Source: Krischvirus LF73P4
Length of the DNA stretch: 64,000 nt
Strand: one strand, 5' to 3'
Sequence record: OZ035795.1
Shown here: positions 25,056 through 63,156 of the stretch, piece by piece
How positions within the stretch are numbered: the stretch's first letter is position 1
Layout: the number at the start of each line of letters is the position of its first letter
Translations under genes and position numbers: made by a program
Notes under the pieces: model-generated
Seen by the model: only the letters and a program-made list of their open reading frames with translations
Database searches by the model: none
Told to the model about the DNA's origin: nothing

Positions 25056-27164
25056 ATGAAAATGCATATCGATAATGAAGAAGTATTTGGCAGTGACCTG
25101 AGCGGTGCGGTTGATTTTTCACTGAAAGCAAGTAGCAAGGCTTTTATGGTGCTTTCTAAGAACACTTATCAATATTGTGAGCGTGCTTGCGTCCGTGAGT
25201 ATTCGTGCAATGCTACCGACACTCACAAAGAAGCCGGAACCTTAGATCGTCCGTTTGATATTCATTTACCGACTGCAATCGAACCGTATTTTTCTGTGCG
25301 TGATTATGGTACGGGTATTCCGTCTAAGAAAGAATTAGAACAACTGTTTACGGTTTACTTTGAATCAACAAAAGACCAGACTAATGATTATATCGGATCT
25401 TTTGGTTTAGGTGCGAAGTCTGCTTATAGCTATACTGACACCTTTACAATCGTAAACTACTACAATGGTCGCGCTTATGGCTTTACTGCATTTGTGCAAA
25501 ACTCTATGCCGAAAATGGTGCAGATTTTCGACGAACCGACCTATGAAGACAACGGTCTGAAAATCACTATTCCGGTGAAAGAAAAAGACATTCAGACATG
25601 GCATCGAGAAGCACAATTTGTACTTCGTCATTTTGGGGAACACAAACCTAATATCAATGCAATCGAAATTAATTATTTCCCTAGCTTTGATAATTATTAT
25701 GTTTGCAATGGGCGTGATAACGATTCCTATGTAGTATATGCAATCATGGGTAAGATCCAGTATCCGATCCCGTATGAATATGTTCGCGGAACATGGTTAG
25801 AAGCTGTAAACCGCCAGCACCAGACCATTTACATTAATTTTGATTTGGGTGATCTGGACCTGATGCCATCGCGCGAAGAAGTTCACTTGTCAATCGAGAC
25901 TAAAGCGAACATCGAAAAACGTATTGCAGAAATCAATGAAATGATGTTGGAAAAGGTTAAAGAAAAGATCGCCAACATTAAAACAGAGCGTAAACTTGCG
26001 CAATTTATGAGCGAGTATTCATCGACTCAACGCAATATTATTAGCAAGATGGGTAAGATCGGGCAGTGGGATGATCCGGTAGCAATCTATAATAAGTTTG
26101 TGAATGCGGGTAAAGATTCGCCTAGTGACGTAGAAGGTCAGGTGTATACTCTGTATCGTACTCGTCACACAATCAGTAAATTGCGCCCTGCTTTCGTTAG
26201 CAGTCAATACAACATTACGCATTTTGTATGGATGCATAAAGAAGATATTCTGTGTGTAATTGATGATACCGATAAACCGAAACTGCGTGCACTGACTCTT
26301 AACGGCATGGTCCAGGAATACGGAATCAATAAAAAGGTACTGGTGTTCCGTCAGCGCAACGAAAAACATATGGAGACTTTCGAGTACATCAAACAGTATT
26401 ATGATGAATCTGAAATGACCGTGATTAAGGTATCAGAGGCCGATGATCTGCGTGCTAAAGCAGTTAAACCGGAAAAGACCGAGCGTACACAACGTGAAGC
26501 GACTCCCAAGCTGCCTAACGTGTATATCATGGAAAAGATTGGTGACAGTTGGCATAAAACCAGCCATCACATGAAAGCGGCAGAGATTCGCGAGTTATCA
26601 GGCTTGCACATGTTCCGCGTAGGTGATGCATTCGAAAGCCGTAGTCGTAAATCGATCTATAGTGAAAATACATTACACACGGCGCTTGACTACTTCGGGG
26701 TAACAAAGTATATTATTACTCGAAACGAGACACAAAAATATCTCGTTGACGAACAATTGGAATGTGCGCTAGAATTTGTTCGCGGTAAGCTGGCTGGTCT
26801 GGCTAAGAAGGTTAAGACCAATCATCTGGGGTATGGCGAATATCTGGGTGTGATCACTATGTTGTTTCATGACGATGAACTAGAACGCTGTGTTCCAGAA
26901 TTTATTGACAGACTGTACGGTCGTCATTATAATAAAGAGGTTTCCAAGTTACTCCTTCGTACTCGTTGGATTATGGACGAAGAAACTAAAAAGATCTGTG
27001 ATGAAAAATTCACGGCAGCAAACGAACGAATTAAAGCAGTTTGTGCGAAGTTTAAAGAGAATAGCCCGTTACTGTATGATATTGTAGATAACTGGTATCG
27101 TATTCTGCATAACGACAAACGCGCACAAGACTTTATGAAACTGGTTAAGAATGTTAAATTTTAA
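25056..27164 (+). CDS. rIIA: rIIA lysis-inhibition/membrane integrity protein
   Basis: 702 aa; GHKL-like boxes (REYSCNATD, RDYGTGI, GSFGLGAKSA); adjacent to rIIB. Confidence 0.8.
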   Translation: MKMHIDNEEVFGSDLSGAVDFSLKASSKAFMVLSKNTYQYCERACVREYSCNATDTHKEAGTLDRPFDIHLPTAIEPYFSVRDYGTGIPSKKELEQLFTVYFESTKDQTNDYIGSFGLGAKSAYSYTDTFTIVNYYNGRAYGFTAFVQNSMPKMVQIFDEPTYEDNGLKITIPVKEKDIQTWHREAQFVLRHFGEHKPNINAIEINYFPSFDNYYVCNGRDNDSYVVYAIMGKIQYPIPYEYVRGTWLEAVNRQHQTIYINFDLGDLDLMPSREEVHLSIETKANIEKRIAEINEMMLEKVKEKIANIKTERKLAQFMSEYSSTQRNIISKMGKIGQWDDPVAIYNKFVNAGKDSPSDVEGQVYTLYRTRHTISKLRPAFVSSQYNITHFVWMHKEDILCVIDDTDKPKLRALTLNGMVQEYGINKKVLVFRQRNEKHMETFEYIKQYYDESEMTVIKVSEADDLRAKAVKPEKTERTQREATPKLPNVYIMEKIGDSWHKTSHHMKAAEIRELSGLHMFRVGDAFESRSRKSIYSENTLHTALDYFGVTKYIITRNETQKYLVDEQLECALEFVRGKLAGLAKKVKTNHLGYGEYLGVITMLFHDDELERCVPEFIDRLYGRHYNKEVSKLLLRTRWIMDEETKKICDEKFTAANERIKAVCAKFKENSPLLYDIVDNWYRILHNDKRAQDFMKLVKNVKF

Positions 27165-31675: not shown

Positions 31676-31710
31676 TTGACACCAGAACAAGGGAGTAGTA
31701 ACATACTCCC
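31676..31710 (+). promoter_or_regulatory. repeated promoter + stem-loop cassette, copy 1 (TTGACA-17-TAACAT; GGGAGTA/TACTCCC)
   Basis: -35 at 31676-31681, -10 at 31699-31704, inverted repeat 31691-31710. Confidence 0.5.
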
Positions 31711-31735
31711 ATACCAAACAAAAGGAGAATCAAAG

Positions 31736-32692: not shown

Positions 32693-32727
32693 TTGACGTA
32701 AAGATAAGGGAGTAGTAACATACTCCC
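32693..32727 (+). promoter_or_regulatory. repeated promoter + stem-loop cassette, copy 3 (TTGACG-17-TAACAT)
   Basis: -35 at 32693-32698, -10 at 32716-32721, inverted repeat 32708-32727. Confidence 0.5.
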
Positions 32728-32750
32728 ATACCAAACGAAAGGAGAATCAC

Positions 32751-32963
32751 ATGAAATCTATCGAGCAAGTAGTAACAGAGTTTATGAGCTACGAAGGAAA
32801 CCGCATCTTTGGACGTTCTCAAGTTCGCGAGATCGTAGAAGAAGTTGCGGGAGAGTTTGCGGAATCTGGTCACGTTATCACGCAAGAACGTAAAGAAGAA
32901 GCAGTAAGCCAGATCATGGCTATGCAGAAAATGCGTATTAATGCACGAGCGGGTAAAAATTAA
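32751..32963 (+). CDS. hypothetical protein
   Basis: 70-aa ORF; GGAG upstream. Confidence 0.45.
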   Translation: MKSIEQVVTEFMSYEGNRIFGRSQVREIVEEVAGEFAESGHVITQERKEEAVSQIMAMQKMRINARAGKN

Positions 32964-32973
32964 AAAATAGTTG

Positions 32974-33008
32974 TTGACACAGGATTAAGGGAGTAGTAAG
33001 ATACTCCC
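32974..33008 (+). promoter_or_regulatory. repeated promoter + stem-loop cassette, copy 4 (TTGACA-17-TAAGAT)
   Basis: -35 at 32974-32979, -10 at 32997-33002, inverted repeat 32989-33008. Confidence 0.5.
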
Positions 33009-33036
33009 ATCAAGACAAAACATTGAGGAATATATT

Positions 33037-33795
33037 ATGAAAAACATTATCGCTGCTATCGTTCTTTCCGCTACTGCTTTCGGTGCTAATGCTGCGTCCT
33101 TTGATTGCGCTAAAGCTACTACCAAATCAGAGAAGTTTATTTGTGCTAATGAGTCTATCTCCGCACTGGACTCTAAACTTCATGAAGTGTATGTTAAGGC
33201 TGTTAAGATTGATCCGTCTCTGAAACAAGAGCAACGAAACTGGAATAAAACTGTTCGTGATACAATGATCAATATCGGGCAGATTCAGCCACTGGAGGCT
33301 GTATACAACGCTCAAATCCAAAACTTGATGAATGTATTACCTAAAGAAGAAACCGCGTCAGAAAGCGATTCAGAGACTTCTGCGAAGGTTGAAGAAGAAC
33401 AACCGAAACAGGAAGCAAAAGTGGTAGAAGAACCGAAGGTCGAAACTTTTACCTATCAATGCACCGTTCGTTATGAGTGGAGTATGAAAGATGGAATTTC
33501 CACAAAAATTAAAGAAGCGCCACTGTATGCCAAATATGGAAATCAACCAGGAGATCTTAAAGTAACCATTAAAAATGGGAAGATGGTTGATTTTGTATAC
33601 ATTGATGAATACAACGTACACAAAGCAAACGTACAAGAAACCGTTATGACTAAAGGCGGGTTTTATAAGAATGTTGGCAAGAAAGATCTATATGAATACT
33701 CCGTTTTCGAACCAAACGACGGAACTATTCGATTCGAAAAACGTCATCCTACATTCGGTGGCGCAATTGATGTAGATCAATACGTTTGCAAGTAA
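33037..33795 (+). CDS. exported protein with DUF1311/LprI-like N-terminal domain
   Basis: Signal peptide ending ANA; FDCAKATT..EKFIC..ESISALDSKL..Y motif; acidic/lysine linker. Confidence 0.55.
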   Translation: MKNIIAAIVLSATAFGANAASFDCAKATTKSEKFICANESISALDSKLHEVYVKAVKIDPSLKQEQRNWNKTVRDTMINIGQIQPLEAVYNAQIQNLMNVLPKEETASESDSETSAKVEEEQPKQEAKVVEEPKVETFTYQCTVRYEWSMKDGISTKIKEAPLYAKYGNQPGDLKVTIKNGKMVDFVYIDEYNVHKANVQETVMTKGGFYKNVGKKDLYEYSVFEPNDGTIRFEKRHPTFGGAIDVDQYVCK

Positions 33796-33806
33796 GAGGT
33801 TAAATT

Positions 33807-34094
33807 ATGAAATTCAATAACATGAAGATCACAAAAGATTGGTGGGATGCGATGCGAGATACTCCAGAAACCAAATTGAATGAGACCACAACAACAATAC
33901 AAGTTGATTACGAAGATCCGAAAGACATATACAGAGAGATTTTAATCAGAGATCTTATAAAAGCTGGAAACTATCAAACACCAGATGGCCTTATTGACAT
34001 GATGGTTAAAGGTCTGTATAGTGGTAAAAATACAGATATTTTACCGTGGTACGAGGGATATTTTAAAACATATCGTGACCACAACCGAAAATAA
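33807..34094 (+). CDS. hypothetical protein
   Basis: 95-aa ORF. Confidence 0.45.
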   Translation: MKFNNMKITKDWWDAMRDTPETKLNETTTTIQVDYEDPKDIYREILIRDLIKAGNYQTPDGLIDMMVKGLYSGKNTDILPWYEGYFKTYRDHNRK

Positions 34095-34117
34095 TTTGTT
34101 GACGTGAGGATTATATT

Positions 34118-34309
34118 ATGGTAATTTTTAATCGTGATGGTATTATAGTTCGACAGCATCCATTCCTTGAATACTATCAGGTTGAACAATGGGGATATGG
34201 AGATTGCAACCGCTCATACGGTCAAAGCTGGGGATACCGTACAGTTTTTGAATCAACTAATATTGACAAAGTACGACAGAAAGTTTTAGAACTTCTTAAC
34301 GATAAGTGA
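34118..34309 (+). CDS. hypothetical protein
   Basis: 63-aa ORF; GAGGA upstream. Confidence 0.4.
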   Translation: MVIFNRDGIIVRQHPFLEYYQVEQWGYGDCNRSYGQSWGYRTVFESTNIDKVRQKVLELLNDK

Positions 34310-34319
34310 GGATTACATC

Positions 34320-34688
34320 ATGGAAATTCAAAACAATTACGAAAAATGTGTTATTATCAATGATTTGCAACGTCAATTGCATCATTACGAAACCGATTAT
34401 AAAACAGCAACCAAAACCGGAAAGTTGAAAGTGTGGGAAGTATGGTATAACCGAAACTATCTGGGAAGTATCCACAAACTTGATCGCAGTGATGTTTATA
34501 CAATGCATGTAGGCGCTTGTGGTGAATCGGATGTAGCATCTAATTTCATGGAAGCACTTGCATTCTATGTAGAATATCTGGTAGACTATATCGAGTTGGA
34601 AGAGGAAGTGGTAGAATTGCTTCCTCCACCGGAAGAAGCGCCGGAAGCAACGATCCTGAAAGCATTAAAGAAAATCTTTGTTAAGTGA
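34320..34688 (+). CDS. hypothetical protein
   Basis: 122-aa ORF. Confidence 0.45.
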   Translation: MEIQNNYEKCVIINDLQRQLHHYETDYKTATKTGKLKVWEVWYNRNYLGSIHKLDRSDVYTMHVGACGESDVASNFMEALAFYVEYLVDYIELEEEVVELLPPPEEAPEATILKALKKIFVK

Positions 34689-34696
34689 GGTGAACT

Positions 34697-35029
34697 ATGA
34701 AAAATGTACTGATTGTGTGGGAACTGATTCCAGAAACTACTGAATTATACATGGTACAGGTTGATAATAAAGAATTTGAAATTCTGAAACGCGTCAACTG
34801 CAAATATATTAACATTGATGACATGACCCCAGAAATGGACTATGTAAACTATGCTCTCATGCAGCCTAGTTGGATTATGGATGAAACCAAAGCAGACGCC
34901 GAATCGCTGGGTGTACCGGAAGAAGTATTAGCGAAATGGCATCAATTCAAAGTTGAAATAAAAGAGGGCGAACCGTTTATTCCTAGCGGTATGATCGATG
35001 CGGTGATCGTAACAGGTTTTCATCTGTAA
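34697..35029 (+). CDS. hypothetical protein
   Basis: 110-aa ORF. Confidence 0.45.
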   Translation: MKNVLIVWELIPETTELYMVQVDNKEFEILKRVNCKYINIDDMTPEMDYVNYALMQPSWIMDETKADAESLGVPEEVLAKWHQFKVEIKEGEPFIPSGMIDAVIVTGFHL

Positions 35030-35041
35030 GGAGATTATACA

Positions 35042-35374
35042 ATGTTTAACTATGACAAATATGAATCATGGAAAGCGACCGAATTGAAAGAGGCAGCGCG
35101 GTTAATCACACCGCGTCTTTATCCGGTGTTGTTTAGCGCCGATAAAGTAACAAGGGAAGTAAACGAGGCGCTATCGGTTTTAGGCTATCTGATCGATAAA
35201 GTAGAGAAAACATCGGTATTCACAAATAGCGTAGAATATACCCGGTATCGAGTGTTTTTAGATTCCTTGCTCGTTGTCATTAAAGCACTAAATGATCATA
35301 ACTACACCATGAACATGACGAAAATAATCGACGAAGCAAGAATTATGACAGAGAATATTTTCGGTAAATTTTGA
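35042..35374 (+). CDS. hypothetical protein (paralog of 35489-35812)
   Basis: 110 aa; C-terminus ...DEARIMTENIFGKF matches neighbour's ...NDARKLAENVYGKF. Confidence 0.5.
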   Translation: MFNYDKYESWKATELKEAARLITPRLYPVLFSADKVTREVNEALSVLGYLIDKVEKTSVFTNSVEYTRYRVFLDSLLVVIKALNDHNYTMNMTKIIDEARIMTENIFGKF

Positions 35375-35488
35375 TTATGAAAGATGATGAATCATTGAAA
35401 ATTGCACTGGTTATGCTATTACAAGGTATAGAATTAGCAAACCACGAAAAAATGTTGACACAACAGCGTGAAATTATGAGAGGTGATT

Positions 35489-35812
35489 ATGATCGAGTTT
35501 GAAATTGACAACTTTCACGAAAAAGCAGAAGACTTAACCAAAATTTTGATTAGTCGAGGTGCATATAATACGAAAGATATTATAAAAGAAGTTAATGTAG
35601 CGATGGACGCGATCCAAAAGGAATTTAAACATATTTCAGCGATTGGAGAAAATGGTCATCTTGAAGATGTTGAGCTGGTAGCACTGCGACGCTATTACTT
35701 CTTTGTTGATTGCATCATTGATCTAGCTAAAAATTATAGTCATTACATGAAAGATATTGTAAACGATGCACGTAAGTTGGCAGAGAATGTTTACGGGAAG
35801 TTTCCAGAATGA
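35489..35812 (+). CDS. hypothetical protein (paralog of 35042-35374)
   Basis: 107 aa; GAGG upstream of ATG 35489. Confidence 0.5.
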   Translation: MIEFEIDNFHEKAEDLTKILISRGAYNTKDIIKEVNVAMDAIQKEFKHISAIGENGHLEDVELVALRRYYFFVDCIIDLAKNYSHYMKDIVNDARKLAENVYGKFPE

Positions 35813-36057
35813 AATTAGAACAAGCGATTGTATACTTTGAGATGGGCTATGATATTGCTCGTGTAGAGTGGGAAGATGGTGATTTTGTCCGATTGATTGA
35901 TCTTCCAGAAACAGCTATTGCACTGGTCAAAGTAGAAAACGGCATACAACGAAATTACGCGTTTTCTGACGAAGACAAACAAGCCGATGACTGGTACGCT
36001 ACATGTTTTCATCATACAGCGTCAAAATGCGATTCAGGCGCGTCTATGCGTCAATAA
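35809..36057 (+). CDS. hypothetical protein
   Basis: 82-aa ORF. Confidence 0.45.
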   Translation: MKLEQAIVYFEMGYDIARVEWEDGDFVRLIDLPETAIALVKVENGIQRNYAFSDEDKQADDWYATCFHHTASKCDSGASMRQ

Positions 36058-36069
36058 ATGCGTCAATAA
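36046..36069 (+). repeat. perfect 12-bp tandem duplication ATGCGTCAATAA x2
   Basis: Read directly; duplicates last three codons plus stop of ORF 35809-36057. Confidence 0.8.
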
Positions 36070-36103
36070 AAAAGAAGGGGAGGCCGAAAGGCTTCCCCTT
36101 TAA
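36068..36103. terminator. bidirectional terminator between convergent early block and holin t
   Basis: AAGGGGAGGCC-gaaa-GGCTTCCCCTT hairpin flanked by A-run (5') and T-rich (3'). Confidence 0.6.
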
Positions 36104-36104
36104 G

Positions 36105-36761
36105 TTATCTAATCCTTCCGAGGATTCTGGCAGATTGATTGCAAAGAGTATCTAAATTCTCAATGTCAATATCCGGTTTATTCTTCCATGCAATGGAGAT
36201 ACTACCAGAATAGACATTATCGAGATTGAATATAGGGCAAGAATACATAAACCCTATATCGATACTCTCTAATTTCTTTTCTCTTGATGGAATATACTGG
36301 AAATCTTTATCGGTAAAATATGATTTACCTAAAAGATGCCTACGATATTCTTCACTCGTTTTATTGATAGGGAATCCGCCTAAATTTTTTTCATCGATTG
36401 TATGCGGTAACTTTCCTTCATATGCCACCAAATCAACAAAATAGTTTAGGTTTTTCGGACGAAAACTAAAAACAGCAGAAAAATCGGCATCAGCCGACAC
36501 ATGAACTATCTGTAACTGCTCCTGTGCTGCATTATCAAAATTGCGGTCTTTCTCTACCTGGAGAACGTGAGCATAAGTCTCATAACGAGTCTCTTTATAA
36601 AGCGCAAATAACTCGTTTTTACTATAAACGACAAATGCTAATATAGACAACACGACGGCAGCAAAAACACGAAGTACGAGCAACTCCGTGCTTTTAGTTG
36701 TGAAAATAGCGCGCAGGACATTTGAGATAGCAAAGTCTTTCCCTTTTTCAGAAACTTGCAT
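36105..36761 (-). CDS. t: holin T (lysis protein t)
   Basis: 218 aa, same length and strong similarity to T4 holin as recalled (LQIVHVSADADFSAVFSFRPKNLNYFVD...). Confidence 0.9.
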   Translation of the reverse strand: MQVSEKGKDFAISNVLRAIFTTKSTELLVLRVFAAVVLSILAFVVYSKNELFALYKETRYETYAHVLQVEKDRNFDNAAQEQLQIVHVSADADFSAVFSFRPKNLNYFVDLVAYEGKLPHTIDEKNLGGFPINKTSEEYRRHLLGKSYFTDKDFQYIPSREKKLESIDIGFMYSCPIFNLDNVYSGSISIAWKNKPDIDIENLDTLCNQSARILGRIR

Positions 36762-36794
36762 ATAATGCCCTAAGATAACTATGACAGTGTACTC

Positions 36795-37034
36795 TTATTT
36801 AGGTAGTTGACTATCACTATTTTTATTTTGCTCGTTGCTATCTTCTGACTGATCTTTATTAAACTCCTTATAAAGTTCTTCCACAAAACGATCATCAATT
36901 GGCGTATTGGTATAAGCCGCAAGACGACGAGCGCAATAGAAGAAAATTTTAGTGAGCATCTTTTCACTAATTAACTTTGACAATAGTTTCATTCCGAAAT
37001 TAGACAAAGCACCAATGACGATATTATAGACCAT
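36795..37034 (-). CDS. hypothetical protein between adhesin and holin
   Basis: 79 aa; AAGGAG 8 nt upstream of ATG; hydrophobic N-terminus, acidic tail. Confidence 0.5.
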   Translation of the reverse strand: MVYNIVIGALSNFGMKLLSKLISEKMLTKIFFYCARRLAAYTNTPIDDRFVEELYKEFNKDQSEDSNEQNKNSDSQLPK

Positions 37035-37097
37035 AGCCGTTTCTCCTTAGTAGTTCCCTTCCGTGGGAGTTTTCCTTAATTCTTTTTATAATTGCGT

Positions 37098-37880
37098 CTA
37101 AACAGCCGGTCCGTAAATAGCTCCGCGATTTTGCCACGTTGGAGAAGACCCTATAACAGCATATCCAGAATCGCCGCCATTATATTCAGATCCTTGACCA
37201 CGAATATTACATCTACCTCCTGCGGCGCCTACCTCACCACCGCTTCCACCATTATAGATACCGTTCACGGACCCCGAACCGGGCGCATAAAGAGTACCAG
37301 CAGTTGCGCCTGATTGCATATCAATAGATCCGCCCGGCGCACCAAACGGACGCCCACCGCCACCGCCAAAGGTTAATCTCATTTGTGAAAAAGGAGAATA
37401 ATACCCGCCACCGCCACCGCCACCGCCACCTGCAATAGCTCCACCATTATTAATTCTTAGTCTCCCACCAATATCATTTTGAATACAATGCCCCCCGGCT
37501 GATCCAGGACCATTGCTACCGCCATTCCCGCCACGACCATACATCGTTACGCCATGTATATTCAACTGAACATATTCATTCGGTGTATCTCCGTACATAA
37601 AGAATAAAGGAACATCTTTAGAATATGATACTAAATCTCCAGTGATATTAAACACTATAGGTGTACTACCTGCTTCAAAGCATCTATCACGGAACCACTG
37701 ACCGTTGAAGTTATGGTCTGCACCAAGTGTATGAATAATTTCTCGCGAGCGACCTGCAAATTGACTCATCCAGCAAGGAACACCCAATCTTAATTGACCA
37801 GCCGCTTGACTCATCCATCGTTGTCCTGTTTCATTTGCGGCTGAACTTCCAATCCAACCAGGAACACCAACTACTGCCAT
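37098..37880 (-). CDS. 38: long tail fibre tip adhesin gp38 (T2-type, glycine-rich motifs)
   Basis: 260 aa; conserved N-terminal domain then poly-Gly runs separated by variable segments. Confidence 0.9.
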
Positions 37881-37893
37881 AATTTATACTCCA

Positions 37894-37912
37894 AAGGGGG
37901 CAACGCCCCCTT
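37894..37912 (-). other. tight stem-loop AAGGGGGC-aac-GCCCCCTT between gene 37 and gene 38
   Basis: Perfect 8-bp inverted repeat with 3-nt loop. Confidence 0.4.
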
Positions 37913-37916
37913 GTTG

Positions 37917-40697
37917 TTAGAATTTAAAATATTTACTAATTTTGCGAGCAATTTTAGTAAAGAAAGGAGTTTTCAATTCTTTAATTTCTTCACTCATTTC
38001 CTGAATAGCCTTAATTAAAAGAGCATTCACTGCCGAGTTAGAAATTGTCAGAACATCAGATCCATCAACTTCAACTTTAGATACAGCTTCCGGCAATTCT
38101 TTTTCAAGATCCTGAGCAATAATACCAGCTTCACGTTTAATCACACTACGATCTTTAATAGACTTAACTTTATCGTAAGTATAAACTTTCAGACGGCATA
38201 CTTTTTCAAGTGCTCCGTTTTCTAACTCTTCTTTATTAATCTTAAGACGGGAGTCAGAACGAATATACACATCGCTAAAGCTACCATTTCCTGGTGTATA
38301 AAAGAACCCATCATGATGGAATTCAAACACAGCTTGTGGGTGTCCAGCATCAGGAGAAGCCTCCGTGGATCCGACACGAATGATTGCTTGCCCCCACTGT
38401 GATGGAATACGACGCATACCAAAGTCAACAGCGGTGCTATATCCTTGATTGGTTATAACGCTTCTTGCTTTAAGAATAGGATAATAACTATCTTGACCAA
38501 CATAACCATGATCAACGAATAATGGAGCTTCTACTCGCCATTGGTTGCCCCAATCACCTGGTTGTCTGGCAACCCAACTTGCACCATTGATATACATACG
38601 ATCGCGGTTAACGTTAACCATTAAGGTATTTTGCGGGTTTAAAGATATCTCGCCAGAATTTGTAATATAAATTGCAGAATTACTAGCATAACTAAAAAAC
38701 CCTAATCCGTTATCAGCGCCTCCTTTCCCTATATACCAATTATTATTACCATCACAACTACCCAACAAATAAACCGAATCTCCAGATGACGGAGCATTCA
38801 AAACTATTGCGTCCGAACCACGATTAACAGTTATTTTATCGGAAGATTCTATTTGACCAAAGAATTTAGTTTTAATTGCACCAGTCGCTAAAGTACGTTC
38901 AGTGGAAAAATGAGCGCCTTTGCTATCTTCTAACTGAATAATGTTATCACGAGCGTTATTGCTATCACCCCAATGGTTAAATTTAAAATAATCTCGTGAT
39001 CCTAAACGTCCGGCGTCAAAAGTCATCAAGCCTTTCATGTTAATATCACCACCAAAAAATGCGGTGAGAGAATCACGTTTTAATTTTAAAACGTTAGCAC
39101 CACTAGTACCACCCAAAGTAACATCACCAGTTCTTAATTCATAACGGAAAGGTCTATTTGTATTAAAGTTTCCATCTTGATCATTTTCGTCGGTGGAAAG
39201 AATATAAAGACTCTCTCCATCATTACGTAAAAATGCACCAAATTTTCCGCCATACATACGGAATGCATTCAACGAGCGGAATTTAACTTCTGTTTTAAAT
39301 GTGGTAGTGTTATTAAGGTTAACAGTAGAGTTAAAGTTAACTGCGCCATTAAAATCTTGTTTAGCAGTCCAAGTATGTGATCCGTCTTCAAGAACAACAC
39401 GGCGAACTGTACAAGTTCTATTTCCCGGATTACCAGCAACACGAACGACAAAATAACGGTAGTTTGTCTGGGATACAGTACCACGCCAAACCTGAACAGT
39501 ACGCCCTGTGCCAGTGTGTTCGCTAGGACCGACAGAAAACATAACCAAGTTTCCGTCAATCGCACCCCAATCCATATTTGCTGGCATGTTCTTTATTTTG
39601 TTCAAAGGAACACTAAACATACTACCAGGGACAAAATCAAAGGTTTGCCAGTCTAGCTCCGCTAATTGAGATTTAACACCACCCATACCCAGAGTGATCG
39701 GCATAGAATAGGACGTATATACTTCGTACCAATTTCCCCAGATGTTATTTGTCATCGCACGTTCAAACACGCGAGATCGCGTAGTTGCACCCGTTCCTGC
39801 GGTAGTGAAACGTTGGAAAATAGCGGCACCGGAAGCACGCTGTTTAACCTCAAGCAATCCGGTCATCTCAACCGGAACACCTTCTGCAACTGGACGGTTA
39901 ATAACGGCATCAGTCCCTAAAATGTTATACAAGCCAGGAGAACGAAAATTATTAAGATCCCCGTCATAGAATGTGTTTGGAGTAACCATACCTACTTGTT
40001 GCCACGGTCCCCAATTCGGAGCTTCTGGATCCCATGCACCAGCAAGACAACGAACATATACAACACCCATTCGGGTAGTATAACGTTGCGTGCGAGAATA
40101 GTTACCACCTTCATAAATTTCTAAAAGACCTTGCGCGAGACCACCTTCTTCTGGGTAATTTCGAGAAAATGATGCAATGGAACTTAAACTATTTCGCCAT
40201 AACCCAAAATGAGAAGCATCACCTAAAGTATTCAAGTCTAGTGTAGTTGATAGTGGACGTGTGCCAGTTTGAATATTGCGCCACGGACCCCATGGACCAT
40301 CTACGCCATTCCATTTAGCAGACAAAGAACGGATATAAACGTTACCAGACCGAACAGTATAACGCTGAGTGCCAGCAAATTGACCAGCCACAAATACTTC
40401 TAATACACCTACAGCATTCTCTTCTGGGAATTTATTTGCTGGCTGCGCATTTGTTGAAGTTGATTTAGACCAAACGCCAGTAAATTTACCAGTAGGTCCA
40501 TAATTATCTAAATTTGCATCAGATGGCAACTCACCGCGAAAGTGTCCCAAAGTAATTACATTATTGCTGTCATCTTTTGTATATAGTTCTCGATCCGCTA
40601 GGTTAATAGCAAGTTCACCCGGAGTTAGAATATTCGCATCCGGCTTGCGACCTGCCGTACTTGTTCTTTTAAATTGGATTCTCTGTAAATCTGCCAT
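37917..40697 (-). CDS. 37: long tail fibre distal subunit gp37, with C-terminal intramolecular-chaperone-like segment
   Basis: 926 aa; N-terminus QRIQFKRTSTAG...GELAINL like T4 gp37; SDSRLK motif about 113 aa from C-terminus. Confidence 0.9.
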   Translation of the reverse strand: MADLQRIQFKRTSTAGRKPDANILTPGELAINLADRELYTKDDSNNVITLGHFRGELPSDANLDNYGPTGKFTGVWSKSTSTNAQPANKFPEENAVGVLEVFVAGQFAGTQRYTVRSGNVYIRSLSAKWNGVDGPWGPWRNIQTGTRPLSTTLDLNTLGDASHFGLWRNSLSSIASFSRNYPEEGGLAQGLLEIYEGGNYSRTQRYTTRMGVVYVRCLAGAWDPEAPNWGPWQQVGMVTPNTFYDGDLNNFRSPGLYNILGTDAVINRPVAEGVPVEMTGLLEVKQRASGAAIFQRFTTAGTGATTRSRVFERAMTNNIWGNWYEVYTSYSMPITLGMGGVKSQLAELDWQTFDFVPGSMFSVPLNKIKNMPANMDWGAIDGNLVMFSVGPSEHTGTGRTVQVWRGTVSQTNYRYFVVRVAGNPGNRTCTVRRVVLEDGSHTWTAKQDFNGAVNFNSTVNLNNTTTFKTEVKFRSLNAFRMYGGKFGAFLRNDGESLYILSTDENDQDGNFNTNRPFRYELRTGDVTLGGTSGANVLKLKRDSLTAFFGGDINMKGLMTFDAGRLGSRDYFKFNHWGDSNNARDNIIQLEDSKGAHFSTERTLATGAIKTKFFGQIESSDKITVNRGSDAIVLNAPSSGDSVYLLGSCDGNNNWYIGKGGADNGLGFFSYASNSAIYITNSGEISLNPQNTLMVNVNRDRMYINGASWVARQPGDWGNQWRVEAPLFVDHGYVGQDSYYPILKARSVITNQGYSTAVDFGMRRIPSQWGQAIIRVGSTEASPDAGHPQAVFEFHHDGFFYTPGNGSFSDVYIRSDSRLKINKEELENGALEKVCRLKVYTYDKVKSIKDRSVIKREAGIIAQDLEKELPEAVSKVEVDGSDVLTISNSAVNALLIKAIQEMSEEIKELKTPFFTKIARKISKYFKF

Positions 40698-40741
40698 TTT
40701 ATAAAATCCTTAACGGTTGTTAGAATAATATTATTTAGAAA

Positions 40742-40760
40742 AGCGGGGATTATCCCCGCT
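40742..40760 (-). terminator. stem-loop AGCGGGGA-tta-TCCCCGCT, partial terminator/attenuator between gp36-like gene and gene 37
   Basis: 8-bp perfect inverted repeat; short U-run follows on - strand. Confidence 0.4.
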
Positions 40761-40764
40761 AGAA

Positions 40765-42255
40765 TTAGAAAGTACCAAAATCAATTACCGCATTAAGCGG
40801 AACAGCGCCAACATCATCAGGAGTTGGTTTGTGTCCTTCGTGGTATAATTCAAATGTATCGGTGTCCTGAGTATTGTTGCGTGATTTAACGAAAATAATT
40901 TTAGAATCATGTGTGATGCCTAGTTTCTCGTGCGCTTTAATATCACTAACACGATGAATCATTGCTGTGCCATCTAAGCTATTAAGTCCAGCGTAGCAAT
41001 TATCACCATTATAGTTAGCTTTTGCGGTACGAACGCCGTTTGCAGCGGGAACTGTCAAAGCACCTCTCATGGTATCGCCAGTCACATTAACATAGCGAGC
41101 ATCAGCCAATTTACGGTGATCTACATAGTTCCATGCGGTCCATGATTCATTAGAACAAGAACGCCAGCACATCGGATGATCAATAGATTCAGGATAGTAT
41201 ACCTGAACAATTCGACGAGTACCGACCGCATCTTCTGGGCGATATACCATCAAAACGCCGTTATAATAGCTATCAGACGGTTTATTAGTACCTGATCCAG
41301 CATTTTCCACACGATAGATACCGCGATTAATAAGAGTGTTCCAATCAACGTTTCCAATGATTGTTGGATTTGCTACCATTGATTTTTTCTCAAAGTAGCT
41401 CAAACGAACCAATTCATTAGGACCAGCAGGATCGTTTGTCGCCAACATTCTAGGCGCTTGCAAGTTACCTTCCATAATATCACCAGCACGTTTAACCTGT
41501 GCATCATTGGTGACATTACCTAGTCCAACATCGGCTTTAGTCGGTTTATTGTTGGTGTGGTAGAATCTACCTGCCTTGCCATTAACAGAAATTGTCGGCT
41601 CGTTTTTGCTACTGAATGCCAAAGTATCAAGACTATTTCCAAAATAAATGGCATTAGAATCGAAAGCAATGAAACCACGATCCCGCGCAAGTATTTTCGA
41701 ATTAACATCAAGTTTAAATGTAGCCGTGTTTAAATTATACGTTCCCGTGAGAGTATCACCGCGACGAGACACCAAATCCAAATCATTGTTTGTCGGCTTA
41801 TTAACAGGACTATAGACGCGTTGACCAGTGTCTTTAATGGTTGTCCCTTCGATGGTCCCTTTAGTTTTAAAATCACCTGTGGTAGTGTCAATATAAGCCA
41901 TGATAACATCATCACGAGCATTAACAAAACCAATAGATTTCCACGAATGCAAACCCCAACTTACACCATCAAAGTTAGCCGCATCGCTCTTTCCTTTAAA
42001 GATCCCGTTCTTTTTGGTTTCTCCACCGGATGCGCTACCTACGCTTAAACCTTCCTCAAAATGGACCAGTTTCTGAAATGTACCACCCTCAGATGCACTA
42101 ACAGCATCAAAATCGGCAGCCGAAGGTTTATCAAAAGCGGTATAGATTTTATGACCTTTATAGAAAAGCTGATCACCCGCTGGCTGGATCGTCAAGTTTC
42201 CTTGCGTCCAAATGGGAGATCCGCCTACAGTAGATCCATGTTTCAAATCTGCCAT
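40765..42255 (-). CDS. 36: long tail fibre hinge/connector protein, gp36-like (enlarged)
   Basis: 496 aa; N-terminus MADLKHGSTVGGSPIWTQGN...PAGD resembles T4 gp36; directly upstream of gene 37. Confidence 0.6.
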   Translation of the reverse strand: MADLKHGSTVGGSPIWTQGNLTIQPAGDQLFYKGHKIYTAFDKPSAADFDAVSASEGGTFQKLVHFEEGLSVGSASGGETKKNGIFKGKSDAANFDGVSWGLHSWKSIGFVNARDDVIMAYIDTTTGDFKTKGTIEGTTIKDTGQRVYSPVNKPTNNDLDLVSRRGDTLTGTYNLNTATFKLDVNSKILARDRGFIAFDSNAIYFGNSLDTLAFSSKNEPTISVNGKAGRFYHTNNKPTKADVGLGNVTNDAQVKRAGDIMEGNLQAPRMLATNDPAGPNELVRLSYFEKKSMVANPTIIGNVDWNTLINRGIYRVENAGSGTNKPSDSYYNGVLMVYRPEDAVGTRRIVQVYYPESIDHPMCWRSCSNESWTAWNYVDHRKLADARYVNVTGDTMRGALTVPAANGVRTAKANYNGDNCYAGLNSLDGTAMIHRVSDIKAHEKLGITHDSKIIFVKSRNNTQDTDTFELYHEGHKPTPDDVGAVPLNAVIDFGTF

Positions 42256-42288
42256 AAAGTAACCTCAAAAATTAGTTATAGTTCCGAG

Positions 42289-42296
42289 TATTTATA
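42289..42296 (-). promoter_or_regulatory. T4-type late promoter box TATAAATA
   Basis: Exact TATAAATA on - strand, 33 nt upstream of gp36-like ATG. Confidence 0.55.
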
Positions 42297-42465
42297 GAAT
42301 GTTAACAAAATATCGCTTCGCGACGTGCCGTAGGCACTGACTACTTTTTAACCGAAACAAATTTTCTATTATTCTAAAGATCTTTCTTCGTTTTGGTTAT
42401 GTTTTAACCAATAACTATATTTTTATACAGTAATAAATAAAACGGGTACTATACGAGGACTTCTT

Positions 42466-42720
42466 ATGACAGAAGACATTTTGTTAAAACTCTATGATCG
42501 TCTGGATAACGAATTAGCAACATTGCGGGGTGAAGTTCTCTATTTGTCTAAATGCAATACAGATCTGCTTAAGCAGATTGCAGAAAGGGATGATCAAATA
42601 AAATCCCTTTCAGGTGCATTACGTGATCGCGACAAGGCATTAGAGATTTTACAGCGTGTTACCAATAAGGAAGAATTAAAAGACTTCTTACATGGTTATG
42701 CTCATGCCATCGATCTATAA
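42466..42720 (+). CDS. hypothetical coiled-coil protein
   Basis: 84 aa; GAGGA 6 nt upstream of ATG. Confidence 0.45.
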   Translation: MTEDILLKLYDRLDNELATLRGEVLYLSKCNTDLLKQIAERDDQIKSLSGALRDRDKALEILQRVTNKEELKDFLHGYAHAIDL

Positions 42721-42746
42721 TAAAAAAGCCCGTCAATGACGGGCTT
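42721..42746 (-). terminator. rho-independent terminator ending the gene 4 - gene 2 transcript
   Basis: AAGCCCGTC-aat-GACGGGCTT hairpin; on - strand followed by TTTTTTA. Confidence 0.6.
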
Positions 42747-42750
42747 AATG

Positions 42751-43572
42751 TTATGCATCCTTCCAAACTTTCCTTGCGTCGTATTTCTTGCCTTTTGACA
42801 TAAACTGATATGTAGGCATATAGATAATATTGCTCCAGTCTTTCGGGCTAATCTCAACAAGTTTTGTTTTAATGTGTCCCGGTAGATATGCTTTGATCAT
42901 GTGATCACTTCCACGCATACCTTTTACATCGCTCCATTTGATTTTTAAGCGTGTTTTATTGCTCAAGGTAGGAGTAGATGCATATTGCTTTAAAAGTGCC
43001 TCTAAAAACTGCTGACGGGCTTTAGGCGTTACATAGTGTAAGTTAAGACCCAGCATTACAGTATTACCCGCCTTTGTCTTAGAATCACCCAGACAAATGA
43101 TCAGCGGGAAAACATCCCAATATGGTAAAGTGTCTTTATACTTCGCATCATACATAAAGGTATAGATTCGCCCTACTTGCGGTTTTACAATCTGGTGTCC
43201 CTTTATTCCCGCTTTTATTGTTTTAGTAAACCACTCCTGTGATTTTTCTTTAGGACGACTCTTTGATACAGCACGCATAGACGCACGAAAATCATTAATC
43301 ATCATCATTGCGCGTTGCTGCTTATTGAGACCCTTTGCACCTTTCCCTTTTAGTTTTTCAACTTCTATTGCTGTTTTAATTTCGCTGGCATAACGAGACA
43401 TACTTTTAGTGAAAGTCGCATAGGCTATTCCCTTAGAATCTGCAAATGCTTTAGCTGTCATGCCTTTGGCTTTTGCTTTCGCAAATTCTACACCCAATTC
43501 GACCCACTGTTTAGACTTTCTTTTTTGGGGAGACGGCTTTTCGTCTTCTGTGATTATTTCAAATACGCTCAT
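42751..43572 (-). CDS. 2: DNA end protector protein gp2
   Basis: 273 aa, basic; size and position next to gene 4 as in T4. Confidence 0.65.
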   Translation of the reverse strand: MSVFEIITEDEKPSPQKRKSKQWVELGVEFAKAKAKGMTAKAFADSKGIAYATFTKSMSRYASEIKTAIEVEKLKGKGAKGLNKQQRAMMMINDFRASMRAVSKSRPKEKSQEWFTKTIKAGIKGHQIVKPQVGRIYTFMYDAKYKDTLPYWDVFPLIICLGDSKTKAGNTVMLGLNLHYVTPKARQQFLEALLKQYASTPTLSNKTRLKIKWSDVKGMRGSDHMIKAYLPGHIKTKLVEISPKDWSNIIYMPTYQFMSKGKKYDARKVWKDA

Positions 43573-43583
43573 AATATTATCCT

Positions 43584-44057
43584 CTATTTGTTAAGCCCTT
43601 TAAAGCCAAACACTTTCTTTAATGCATGTTCGGTGATGATCTTAAACTCCATGTTATGCTTTTGGCATAATTTCACGGCAGCTAACCATTTTTCAGTATT
43701 TTTTGTGTATGTCCATACTTCATGCATATATCGTTGCTTTGTCTTCGCGGTCATTCTTTTTGGCTTTTCCGGTGGCCTTGTCTCTTTAGCTGGTTTAACT
43801 TCCCATAAATGCTCCTTGCCATCATCAAACTTAACGTAAAAATCCATAAAGTATCTGTGTCTTTTTCCGTCTGTTGATGACTCATAAGGAATTACTACGG
43901 TCTCAGATCCCCATTTTGCAACTCTAGGATTGCGGTCTAGCCACTGCATGATCCATCTTTCCCAGCTTGAACGGTATGTGATCTTACGTATATCCCCTTT
44001 ATACTTTTCCTTATTCTCAGGAACATACTTGCCCTTATAAGTGTTAGATCCTCCCAT
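43584..44057 (-). CDS. 4: head completion protein gp4
   Basis: 157 aa; divergent from gene 53 as in T4. Confidence 0.65.
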   Translation of the reverse strand: MGGSNTYKGKYVPENKEKYKGDIRKITYRSSWERWIMQWLDRNPRVAKWGSETVVIPYESSTDGKRHRYFMDFYVKFDDGKEHLWEVKPAKETRPPEKPKRMTAKTKQRYMHEVWTYTKNTEKWLAAVKLCQKHNMEFKIITEHALKKVFGFKGLNK

Positions 44058-44072
44058 TTTAGCACCCTTTAT

Positions 44073-44080
44073 TATAAATA
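44073..44080 (+). promoter_or_regulatory. T4-type late promoter box TATAAATA for gene 53 operon
   Basis: Exact TATAAATA, 32 nt upstream of ATG 44113. Confidence 0.6.
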
Positions 44081-54882: not shown

Positions 54883-54890
54883 TATAAATA
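54883..54890 (+). promoter_or_regulatory. T4-type late promoter box TATAAATA for gene 9
   Basis: Exact TATAAATA, 27 nt upstream of ATG 54918. Confidence 0.6.
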
Positions 54891-62415: not shown

Positions 62416-63156
62416 ATGTTTAACAACACTCTTTTTGCTCGCCTTGAATCGCAAAAGGATTATGAGAATACACGACAAACAGAGATTCTTAATCCTTATG
62501 TGAACTTTCACAAATATACAAATACTCAGACGTTAGCCGACGTTATGGTCGCCGAAGCTATTCAGATGCGAGGTGTAGAATTATATTACATCCCTCGTGA
62601 ATTTGTCAAACCAGATATGATCTTTGGTGAGGATGTTCAAAGCAAATTTACTAAAGCATGGAAATTTGCGGCTTATGTTAACTCATTTGATGGGTATGAA
62701 GGAGCGGGTAATTTCTTCTCTAGTTTCGGGTATCAAGCTAATGATGAACTAACTTTTACGGTTAACCCCAACCTATTCAAGCATCAAGTAGATGATCAAG
62801 AGCCAAAATCAGGTGACTTAATTTATATTCCAATGAGTAATGATCTCTTTGAAATTAATTACGTCGAGCCATATCAGCCGTTTTTTCAGGCTGGCAAAAA
62901 TGCCATGCGTAAAATTATTGCAGAGAAATTCGTGTATAGCGGTGAGGAATTGCGACCAGAATTACAACGCAATGAGGGAATTAATGTTGATGAGTTTGCG
63001 GATCTGGATCTTGCACCGATCACTAATCTGGACGGGTTAACAGATATCAACTTAGATCAGTACAAAGAAGATAAGCAATTCAGAAGCGAAGGACAAGATT
63101 TTATTGATCCGTTTGATCCTATTAATGGCAAGGGTTCACCTTTCGCCGATTTTTGA
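62416..63156 (+). CDS. 14: neck protein gp14
   Basis: 246 aa; size and order match T4. Confidence 0.8.

What the first reader, a model, noticed from the sequence alone, without database searches (positions are those of the whole stretch)
40765..42255. gp36-like connector is more than twice the T4 size
The ORF upstream of gene 37 has a gp36-like N-terminus (MADLKHGSTVGGSPIWTQGN...) but is 496 aa; T4 gp36 is about 220 aa as I recall. Since gene 35 is absent from this locus, the protein may combine gp35 and gp36 functions or carry an extra domain, which would alter long tail fibre geometry.
Basis: partly seen in the sequence, partly recalled or inferred. Interest (0 to 1): 0.4.

Follow-up and report, generated by a model that had tools for sequence, protein, structure and literature searches.

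The report
Ordinary RB49-type gp36 tail-fibre protein
The 496-residue protein is the normal gp36 tail-fibre connector of RB49-like (Krischvirus) coliphages: it is longer than T4's because it carries extra fibre-shaft and knob modules, not a fused gp35, and gene 35 is missing nearby only because the window crosses an inversion-type junction at a 110-bp repeat.

Summary
The ORF is real: 40765-42255 on the minus strand, 496 aa, against 221 aa for T4 gp36. It is not unusual for its group. It is 100% identical to a protein of Escherichia phage vB-Eco-KMB43 and about 90% identical to RB49 gp36, which is also 496 aa and has been annotated as gene 36 since 2003. Relatives down to 51% identity are all 492-508 aa.

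Residues 1-180 are homologous to T4 gp36. The rest is extra fibre modules (repeated NKP/GDTMTG shaft motifs and a knob-like domain at residues 296-380), followed by a conserved C-terminal DFG tail. There is no similarity to gp35 of T4 or RB49, so the fusion idea is refuted.

gp36 plus mature gp37 is only about 5% longer than in T4, so a large change in fibre geometry is unlikely.

Gene 35 is indeed absent from the window, but every relative has 34-35 directly upstream of 36. The window instead joins gene 36 to the ORF130w/gp2 region across a 110-bp repeat. That repeat is present as an inverted pair in RB49 and KMB43. This is either a real ~87-kb inversion or an assembly mis-join, and I could not tell which. 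No public sequence I searched shares the junction.

Verdict: the finding as stated is ordinary and already known. The junction is a modest side observation.

The parts
40765..42255 (-). gene 36: 496-aa Krischvirus-type gp36, the small distal subunit / distal connector of the long tail fibre
   Evidence: ORF. 100% identical to KMB43 WQN06566 and 89.7% to RB49 gp36 AAQ15493, both 496 aa. Matches phrog_16472 over 1-496 of 496, 1090 bits.
41716..42255 (-). residues 1-180: region homologous to T4 gp36 residues 1-191. By homology this is the end that joins the knee (gp35/gp34).
   Evidence: BLASTP 38% identity, E 5e-31. Pfam Phage_T4_gp36 matches residues 62-140 at 22.4 bits, below the gathering score of 26. 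The first ~50 residues are shared with many distal-fibre proteins.
41461..41859 (-). residues 133-265: additional shaft module with the motifs VYSPVNKPTNNDL...GDTLTG and FYHTNNKPTKADVGLGNVTNDAQVKRAGDIMEG
   Evidence: Aligns to residues 26-181 of an E. coli prophage tail fibre, P0107 (E 5e-14). Motif count is 4 NKP-type and 3 GDxMxG against 1 and 1 in T4 gp36.
41374..41505 (-). residues 251-294: second copy of the segment that forms the C-terminal part of T4 gp36 (T4 residues 172-215)
   Evidence: BLASTP E 8e-6. tblastn gives the same coordinates.
41116..41370 (-). residues 296-380: beta-rich globular 'knob'-like domain that T4 gp36 lacks
40768..41115 (-). residues 381-496: further shaft (KLADARYVNVTGDTMRGAL repeat motif, LYHEGHKPTPDDVG) and the conserved C-terminal tail AVPLNAVIDFGTF, inferred to join gp37
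   Evidence: The motif recurs 10-20 times in giant fibre proteins. The C-terminal residues 484-495 are invariant in the family and resemble the T4 gp36 end ...DSVQDFGYY. The gp37 N-terminal 55 residues are 58% identical to T4 gp37.
42289..42296 (-). T4-type late promoter consensus TATAAATA, 33 nt upstream of the gene 36 start codon, between the repeat and the gene
   Evidence: One of only 3 exact matches in the window. All three lie just upstream of late genes: 36, 53 and 9. T4 gene 36 is transcribed from its own late promoter (PMC3004832).
42302..42411 (.). 110-bp repeat at the junction. In RB49 and KMB43 it is present as an inverted pair (35/36 spacer and 3/ORF130w spacer). This is where the window switches from the 36-37-38-t block to the ORF130w-gp2-gp4-gp53 block.
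   Evidence: Both BLAST blocks overlap here. The two RB49 copies are 94% identical. The window copy equals the KMB43 35/36 copy at all diagnostic sites, then continues into the ORF130w flank. The Logan contig of run ERR12949693 ends inside it.
37917..40697 (-). [quoted passage not shown]
   Evidence: Pfam and PHROG matches. The N-terminal 55 aa are conserved with T4 gp37 and the N-terminal 50 aa with RB49 gp37.
37098..37880 (-). gene 38: 260-aa glycine-rich adhesin of the T2/T6/S16 type
   Evidence: Pfam GP38 at 4.4e-71 and Gp38_N.
42466..42720 (+). homologue of RB49 ORF130w (84 aa). In all relatives it diverges from gene 3, here it diverges from gene 36.

Best explanation
This is the standard gene 36 product of RB49-like phages (genus Krischvirus, Straboviridae). 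[quoted passage not shown]

Shown by sequence comparison:
- The first ~180 residues are homologous to T4 gp36.
- The extreme C-terminus (…IDFGTF) is conserved.
- The N-terminus of the downstream gp37 is conserved with T4.

Inferred from the T4 model: the protein is a trimer. Its N-terminal end binds the gp35 knee-cap and gp34, and its C-terminal end is extended by gp37. gp37 is then capped by the gp38 adhesin after its chaperone domain is cleaved off.

The extra ~275 residues are not gp35. They are further copies of ordinary fibre building blocks (two more 'Y-x-x-N-K-P…G-D-T-M-T-G' shaft repeats and one knob-like beta domain). These blocks are shuffled among many phage and prophage tail fibres.

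The mature gp37 is about 200 residues shorter than in T4, so the distal half-fibre as a whole has about the same chain length. In effect the gp36/gp37 boundary sits further along the fibre.

Gene 35 is not lost. It is absent from the window because the sequence crosses an inversion-type junction in a 110-bp repeat 47 bp upstream of the gene 36 start. Gene 36 keeps its own late promoter, so expression of 36-37-38 does not depend on what lies upstream.
For: Identity and length:
- 100% identical to the KMB43 protein and 89.7% to RB49 gp36, both 496 aa.
- phrog_16472 matched over 1-496 of 496 positions.
- Family members at 51-91% identity are 492-508 aa.
- 71 phage records cover at least 80% of it.

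Homology to T4 gp36:
- 38% identity over residues 1-180, E 5e-31. The T4 C-terminal segment re-aligns at residues 251-294.

Not gp35:
- E at least 0.13 against gp35 of T4 and RB49.
- Relatives carry a separate gp35 plus a 496-aa gp36.

Modular nature of the extra part:
- Motif counts.
- Residues 133-265 align to a prophage fibre.
- The C-terminal 211 aa have 367 HMMER relatives, all checked carriers being tail-fibre proteins. One is a 902-aa full-length member of phrog_1425, 'hinge connector … distal connector'.

Interfaces:
- The C-terminal tail is invariant.
- gp37 residues 1-55 are 58% identical to T4.

Length budget:
- 496 + ~813 here against 221 + 1026 in T4.
- RB49 morphology is described as T4-like (PMC9569957).

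Promoter: and PMC3004832.

Junction.
Against: - The Pfam Phage_T4_gp36 match is below the gathering score (22.4 against 26 bits).
- There is no NCBIfam hit and no PDB sequence hit.
- The AF2 models are poor overall (pLDDT 45 and 57). The knob assignment therefore rests on moderate scores.
- I found no experimental data (virion proteomics, EM or genetics) for a Krischvirus gp36.
- Trimer state, binding partners and the 'same overall length' argument are inferences from T4.
- For this particular phage the presence of gene 35 elsewhere could not be shown, because only 64 kb are available.
Confidence: 0.85

Rival explanations
1. gp35-gp36 fusion: the long protein replaces the monomeric knee-cap gp35 as well as gp36, which would explain why gene 35 is missing.
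For: Gene 35 is absent from the 64-kb window. The protein has ~275 residues more than T4 gp36.
Against: There is no detectable similarity to T4 or RB49 gp35. RB49, KMB43 and others have the same 496-aa gp36 AND a separate 379-aa gp35 immediately upstream. The extra part is made of fibre shaft and knob modules found in many trimeric fibres. The absence of gene 35 is explained by the junction at 42302-42411.
Confidence: 0.02
2. The extra knob (residues 296-380) has a function of its own. It could be a docking site for the fibritin whiskers that hold retracted fibres, or a secondary glycan or receptor contact. In that case it would be more than passive fibre length.
For: The best fold matches include receptor-binding domains of staphylococcal phages and pyocin fibres. 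In T4 the fibritin N-terminus is thought to bind near the gp36/gp37 junction (PMC3004832). The knob is conserved down to 51% identity.
Against: Similar knobs occur along T4 gp34 and pyocin fibres as structural beads. There is no sequence-level carbohydrate-binding family hit. In RB49-like phages receptor recognition maps to gp38 (PMC9569957). Model quality is modest.
Confidence: 0.12
3. Sub-question, why gene 35 is not next to gene 36. Reading A: the phage really carries an ~87-kb inversion. It would have arisen by homologous recombination between the two inverted 110-bp repeats that sit upstream of genes 36 and 3. Genes 34-35 would then lie next to gene 3, outside the window.
For: - The inverted pair exists in RB49 and KMB43 and is the only long inverted repeat in RB49.
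- The two RB49 copies share a private variant, so the copies do exchange sequence.
- The switch falls inside the last ~45 identical bp of the repeat.
- The diagnostic 'C' at 42366 and the ORF130w flank at 42412 are only 47 nt apart. Any assembler using reads or k-mers longer than that would need real reads to link them.
- Both breakpoints are intergenic and each downstream gene keeps its promoter. The isomer should therefore be viable.
Against: - The junction is contiguous in none of the 385 matching phage records.
- 0 of 20 independent contigs with the same gp2 or gp5 show it.
- There are 0 hits in IMG/VR, JGI metagenome contigs or GTDB genomes.
- The reciprocal junction is outside the window.
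- The short-read graph of the same run breaks in the repeat.
Confidence: 0.45
4. Sub-question, reading B: the junction is an assembly or scaffolding mis-join across the inverted repeat. The real genome would then have the canonical order 34-35-36-37-38.
For: - The arrangement is unique among all public relatives.
- An inversion between inverted repeats is the classic product of a collapsed or mis-threaded repeat.
- The Logan contig, identical to window 32707-42361, stops inside the repeat exactly where 31-mers become shared with a KMB43-like second copy.
Against: The two copies differ at several sites. Exact shared runs are only about 34-46 bp, which normal read lengths and k-mers resolve. The window copy is a clean 35/36-type copy joined to the other flank, as a true crossover would give.
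Confidence: 0.5

Closest known systems
RB49 gp36 (AAQ15493; 'hinge connector of long tail fiber distal connector') and its Krischvirus orthologues (Phi1, JSE, KMB43; PHROG 16472)
   Same: Same length (496 aa). 90-100% identical. Same position upstream of gene 37. Same late-promoter spacer.
   Different: Nothing in the protein. In the window the upstream neighbours are ORF130w and gp2 instead of genes 35 and 34.
T4 gp36 (NP_049862, 221 aa), the trimeric upper 'shin' of the distal half-fibre
   Same: Homologous N-terminal ~180 residues (38% identity). A similar C-terminal DFG-aromatic tail. Placed upstream of gene 37 with its own late promoter.
   Different: 2.2 times longer. Two extra NKP/GDTMTG shaft repeats and a knob domain are inserted between the T4-like part and the C-terminal tail. 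The Pfam match is below threshold. The short ~215-237-aa form is the common one, full-length in 1242 of 1406 matching phage records.
Long gp36 orthologues of PHROG 1425 (profile 912 positions; e.g. P0133, 902 aa)
   Same: Same N-terminus and the same knob and shaft modules. P0133 matches phrog_16472 over positions 1-463 and phrog_1425 end to end.
   Different: About 400 residues longer still. This shows that gp36 length varies by modules across T4-like phages (~215, ~500, ~900 aa).
Knob domains of R-type pyocin fibres (PDB 6cu2/6cl6), T4 gp34 C-terminal region (5nxh/4uxg) and staphylococcal phage receptor-binding proteins (5efv, 9euf, 5m9f)
   Different: 9-15% sequence identity. The query model is only moderately confident. 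No family-level sequence match.
Repeat-mediated module rearrangements in T4-related phages (PeSL cassettes of RB49/phi1, PMC2839356; Campylobacter phage CP21 modules, PMC4546147)
   Same: Short repeated intergenic sequences act as substrates for homologous recombination that reshuffles gene blocks.
   Different: PeSLs are direct repeats in early regions and give deletions, insertions or circles. Here a single inverted pair upstream of two late genes would give an ~87-kb inversion. I found no report of this for Krischvirus. I did not read the CP21 paper beyond its abstract.

Membership tests
Krischvirus-type gp36 (PHROG 16472) | Full-length match to the family profile and about 496 aa | tested here: met
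   Residues 1-496 match profile positions 1-496 of 496 at 1090 bits. 100% identical to the KMB43 protein and 89.7% to RB49 gp36. Relatives are 492-508 aa.
Krischvirus-type gp36 (PHROG 16472) | Gene lies between gene 35 and gene 37 of the long-tail-fibre cluster | tested here: inconclusive
   Gene 37 is directly downstream. Gene 35 is not upstream in the window although it is in RB49 and KMB43. The cause is the junction at 42302-42411.
T4 gp36 family (Pfam PF03903 Phage_T4_gp36) | Score at or above Pfam's gathering threshold | tested here: not met
   22.4 bits against a cut-off of 26, covering residues 62-140 only. Several close relatives carry a precomputed PF03903 hit.
T4 gp36 family (Pfam PF03903 Phage_T4_gp36) | Pairwise homology to T4 gp36 over most of the T4 protein | tested here: met
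   T4 residues 1-191 align to query residues 1-180 (38% identity, E 5e-31). T4 residues 172-215 align to query 251-294, E 8e-6.
T4 gp36 family (Pfam PF03903 Phage_T4_gp36) | Size of about 220 aa | tested here: not met
   496 aa against 221 aa.
T4 gp36 family (Pfam PF03903 Phage_T4_gp36) | Homotrimer in the virion that binds the gp37 N-terminus and then gp35 | not testable with these tools
   There is only indirect support: a conserved C-terminal tail and a conserved gp37 N-terminus. The T4 assembly order is taken from PMC3004832.
gp35 (knee-cap, proximal connector) | Sequence similarity to gp35 in any part of the protein | tested here: not met
   Best E 0.81 against T4 gp35 and 0.13 against RB49 gp35.
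Fibre 'knob' domain (pyocin / gp34 type) | Fold similarity of residues ~296-380 to solved knob domains | tested here: inconclusive
Inversion by recombination between inverted repeats | The repeat is present in inverted orientation at both breakpoints of the canonical genome | tested here: met
   RB49 62775-62882 against 150109-150000, 94% identity. The KMB43 copies are at L002 11845-11954 and L023 5320-5427.
Inversion by recombination between inverted repeats | The switch of flanks occurs inside the repeat | tested here: met
   The window copy equals the 35/36-type copy through 42366. The flank changes after 42411.
Inversion by recombination between inverted repeats | Reciprocal junction (gene 3 | repeat | gene 35) and read-level support | not testable with these tools
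   The second breakpoint would lie ~87 kb away, outside the window. The Logan contig ends in the repeat.

The most novel reading that the evidence does not exclude
The junction is real. This Krischvirus would then carry an ~87-kb inversion of the central part of its genome, from ORF130w and gp2 through the structural and many replication genes to genes 34-35. The inversion would have been made by crossover within a 110-bp element that sits, in the same orientation relative to the gene, upstream of the late genes 3 and 36. It would split the long-tail-fibre cluster into 34-35 and 36-37-38. That would show the distal half-fibre genes form an autonomous late unit. It would also be the first large inversion reported in this otherwise strictly colinear phage genus, and populations might hold both isomers.
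Probability: 0.4. Interest if true: 0.45.

Novelty: already known. Interest (0 to 1): 0.15.

Why it matters
For gp36 itself it matters little. The 496-aa form has been in GenBank as RB49 gene 36 since 2003 and is typical of the genus. The useful point is a reminder that T4 is not representative. gp36 length varies by whole fibre modules across T4-like phages (about 215, 500 and 900 aa), while the two ends that make the joints stay conserved. This is relevant for engineering chimeric fibres.

The junction matters more in practice. If it is an assembly artefact, the source genome needs correcting. If it is real, it is a rare large inversion in a T4-like core genome, and it identifies a small conserved element upstream of genes 3 and 36 whose function is unknown.

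Tried and rejected
- NCBIfam scan of gp36, gp37, T4 gp36 and RB49 gp35 gave no hits.
- PDB sequence search with gp36 gave no hits at E up to 1.
- Pfam on the isolated extra segments gave nothing even at E up to 10.
- The word-index homologue search with the C-terminal 211 aa returned only 2 fragments and was uninformative. I replaced it with the exhaustive HMMER search.
- The full-length AF2 model had pLDDT 45, so I did not interpret global matches.
- BLASTP of gp36 against T4 gp37, T4 gp34 and the window's own gp37 found no significant similarity beyond short fibre motifs. The extra part is therefore not simply a piece of T4-type gp37 or gp34.
- Rfam on 42100-42800 found nothing near threshold in the repeat. 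The sigma-70 scan found no promoter in the repeat, only a weak terminator-like hairpin on the minus strand. RNA folding z-scores were -1.8 and -2.8.
- The junction-spanning pattern gave 0 matches in viral contigs, metagenome contigs and genome contigs. IMG/VR holds only 2 contigs with the right-hand anchor, so that negative is weak.
- I tried to find the same run's contig on the other side of the junction through gp2 and gp5. This failed because those proteins are identical in hundreds of assemblies.
- A literature search for the run accession and for Krischvirus inversions found nothing relevant.
- Desplats 2002 (PMC135041) and Hyman & van Raaij 2018 (PMC5899708) are not held.
Full report
OBSERVATION

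The ORF is real. It runs from 42255 down to 40765 on the minus strand and encodes 496 aa beginning MADLKHGSTVGGSPIWTQGN. Downstream on the same strand are:
- a 926-aa gp37 with a C-terminal Peptidase_S74 chaperone domain,
- a 260-aa glycine-rich gp38 adhesin,
- a 79-aa ORF,
- the holin t.

tblastn of gp35, gp34 and gp3 of RB49 and T4 against the whole window finds no gp35 and no gp3. gp34 hits only the related repeats of the short tail fibre gp12. Gene 35 is therefore indeed absent from these 64 kb.

WHAT THE PROTEIN IS

The protein is 100% identical to a 'tail fiber protein' of Escherichia phage vB-Eco-KMB43. It is 89.7% identical to gp36 of RB49, the type phage of genus Krischvirus, where the gene is annotated '36: hinge connector of long tail fiber distal connector' and is also 496 aa.
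- It matches PHROG 16472 from the first to the last profile position.
- 71 phage records cover at least 80% of it.
- In the 5.8-billion-protein collection its full-length relatives, down to 51% identity, are 492-508 aa long.

The difference from T4 is nevertheless real and genus-specific. The short T4-type gp36 (about 215-237 aa) is recovered full-length in 1242 of 1406 matching phage records from many genera. Krischviruses align only to T4 residues 1-184.

DOMAIN ANATOMY

- Residues 1-180 align to T4 gp36 residues 1-191 (38% identity, E 5e-31).
- The C-terminal segment of T4 gp36 (residues 172-215) aligns a second time to residues 251-294.
- The protein holds four '[FY]xxxNKPxxxD' motifs and three 'GDxMxG' motifs. 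T4 gp36 has one of each.
- Residues 133-265 align to the N-terminal shaft of an E. coli prophage tail fibre.
- Both proteins end in a similar tail, …NAVIDFGTF here and …DSVQDFGYY in T4. This tail is invariant within the family.
- The first 55 residues of the downstream gp37 are 58% identical to T4 gp37.

The two ends that make the joints are therefore conserved, and the extra ~275 residues sit between them.

An exhaustive HMMER search with the last 211 residues finds 367 relatives:
- The knob plus shaft is embedded inside 400-1400-aa proteins.
- The 'KLADxRYVxxxGDTMxGxL' motif is repeated 10-20 times in giant proteins.
- All ten carriers I checked are tail-fibre proteins.
- One, P0133 (902 aa), is a full-length member of PHROG 1425, 'hinge connector of long tail fiber protein distal connector'.

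gp36 length therefore varies by whole modules across T4-like phages.

THE gp35 FUSION IDEA

BLASTP of the 496-aa protein against T4 gp35 and RB49 gp35 gives nothing (best E 0.81 and 0.13). RB49 and KMB43 have both a separate 379-aa gp35 and the 496-aa gp36. The fusion hypothesis is refuted.

The extra part is also not a transplanted piece of T4-type gp37 or gp34, nor of the window's own gp37.

GEOMETRY

The Peptidase_S74 domain of gp37 starts at residue 814. RB49-type gp37 is known to lose this domain and then bind gp38 (PMC9569957). So gp36 plus mature gp37 is about 496 + 813 = 1309 residues per chain, against 221 + 1026 = 1247 in T4. That is about 5% more.

RB49 virions are described as very similar to T4. 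My inference is that the gp36/gp37 boundary sits further along a distal half-fibre of roughly normal length, with perhaps one extra bead near the knee. This is inference, not measurement.

HOW IT MOST LIKELY WORKS

This follows the T4 model (PMC3004832), so every step below is inferred.
1. A gp36 trimer binds the N-terminal region of trimeric gp37 through its C-terminal tail.
2. Monomeric gp35 then binds gp36.
3. The half-fibre joins gp34.

A perfect T4-type late promoter, TATAAATA, lies 33 nt upstream of the start codon. It is one of only three in the window, and each lies upstream of a late gene. This matches T4, where gene 36 has its own late promoter.

WHY GENE 35 IS MISSING

BLAST against a reassembled RB49 genome shows the following:
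- Window 1-42411 is colinear with RB49 27166→1 and 164018→150000, in reverse orientation.
- Window 42302-64000 matches RB49 62775→84460, in forward orientation.
- The two blocks overlap by 110 bp (42302-42411).

RB49 itself holds this 110-bp sequence twice, in inverted orientation and 94% identical. One copy is in the gene 35/36 spacer and the other in the gene 3/ORF130w spacer. It is the only long inverted repeat in that genome. In both places the element lies upstream of a late gene (36 or 3) in the same orientation relative to that gene.

The window's copy is identical to the 35/36 copy of KMB43 at every diagnostic site. It then continues into the ORF130w flank, so the switch lies in the last ~45 bp that the copies share. 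The result is an inversion-type junction: gene 36 now diverges from ORF130w and gp2, and genes 35-34 would be next to gene 3, about 87 kb away and outside the window.

IS THE JUNCTION REAL?

Against:
- None of 385 matching phage records holds the junction contiguously.
- 20 of 20 independent contigs with the identical gp2 or gp5, many of them reference-free metagenome assemblies, have the canonical gp2-ORF130w-gp3-gp1 order.
- A junction-spanning pattern whose two anchors are conserved in canonical genomes has no match in IMG/VR, JGI metagenome contigs or GTDB genomes. IMG/VR holds only two relevant contigs.
- A Logan contig of run ERR12949693 is 100% identical to window 32707-42361 and ends inside the repeat. 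It ends exactly where 31-mers would become shared with a second copy carrying the G variant seen in KMB43's gene 3 copy. The reads therefore contain a second copy, and the short-read graph is ambiguous there.

For:
- The copies differ at several sites. The diagnostic C at 42366 is only 47 nt from the foreign flank, so ordinary reads should phase them.
- RB49's two copies share a private variant, which is evidence that the copies recombine.
- Both breakpoints are intergenic and each downstream gene keeps its promoter, so the isomer should be viable.

I rate a real inversion at about 0.45 and a mis-join at about 0.5. Either way, gene 35 has not been lost or absorbed into gp36.

COMPARISON WITH WHAT IS KNOWN, AND NOVELTY

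The protein is a member of the Krischvirus gp36 family. It is a longer, modular homologue of T4 gp36, and it fails Pfam's gathering score for PF03903. I found no paper that discusses the larger size, and no proteomic or structural data for it. The gene has been annotated as gene 36 in public records since RB49 (AY343333), and Trojet et al. (PMC3157838) drew the RB49 fibre locus. The finding as stated is therefore already known.

The junction is new relative to all public sequences I searched, but it may be an artefact. Repeat-mediated shuffling is known in RB49/phi1 (PeSL direct repeats, PMC2839356). A search for reports of Krischvirus inversions found nothing relevant.

VERDICT

- Observation: confirmed.
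- Interpretation: partly supported. There is an extra domain, but no gp35 fusion and probably little change in geometry.
- Interest: low (0.15).
- Most novel surviving reading: a genuine ~87-kb inversion, with probability about 0.4 and interest if true of about 0.45.

Noticed in passing
window 42302-42411 (and RB49 62775-62882 / 150000-150109; KMB43 L002 11845-11954 / L023 5320-5427): A 110-bp element occurs exactly twice per Krischvirus genome, inverted, each time upstream of a late gene (3 and 36) in the same orientation relative to that gene. The window switches genome blocks inside it (inversion-type junction). RB49's two copies share a private A variant, which indicates concerted evolution. 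Its function is unknown. It has a weak terminator-like hairpin on the gene-36 strand and no Rfam match.
   Followed up: yes
window 37098-40697: The gp37/gp38 receptor module differs from RB49. gp37 is 926 aa and only 37-52% identical to RB49 gp37 beyond the first 50 residues. The gp38 adhesin gene lies directly after gene 37 (T2/T6/S16 arrangement, as in KMB43), whereas RB49's g38 is displaced to ~45.4 kb. This looks like a host-range module swap within the genus.
   Followed up: partly
window 35809-36057 (+): An 82-aa ORF next to the holin gene matches Pfam Tad2-like (Thoeris anti-defence 2-like domain) at 27.9 bits, above the gathering score of 25. It is a possible anti-Thoeris sponge protein conserved in RB49 (ORF253c).
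   Followed up: partly
window 31690-31732 and 32707-32749: A 43-bp direct repeat (97.7% identical) lies in the early-gene region. The other end of the Logan contig L009 stops exactly at it. This is reminiscent of the PeSL promoter/stem-loop cassettes described for RB49/phi1.
   Followed up: no
window ~232-236: Relative to RB49, the segment RB49 26366-26930 (ORF040c, a putative HNH endonuclease next to gene 47) is absent. This is a typical homing-endonuclease presence/absence polymorphism.
   Followed up: no
window 42289-42296 (-), 44073-44080 (+), 54883-54890 (+): The exact T4 late-promoter consensus TATAAATA occurs only three times in 64 kb, which is not more than chance. Each copy sits just upstream of a late gene start (gene 36, gene 53, gene 9).
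   Followed up: partly
window 43584-44057 (-): The head-completion protein gp4 matches the Pfam TnsA-like endonuclease N-terminal domain (4e-21). This is a known fold relationship, with no sign of a transposon.
   Followed up: no
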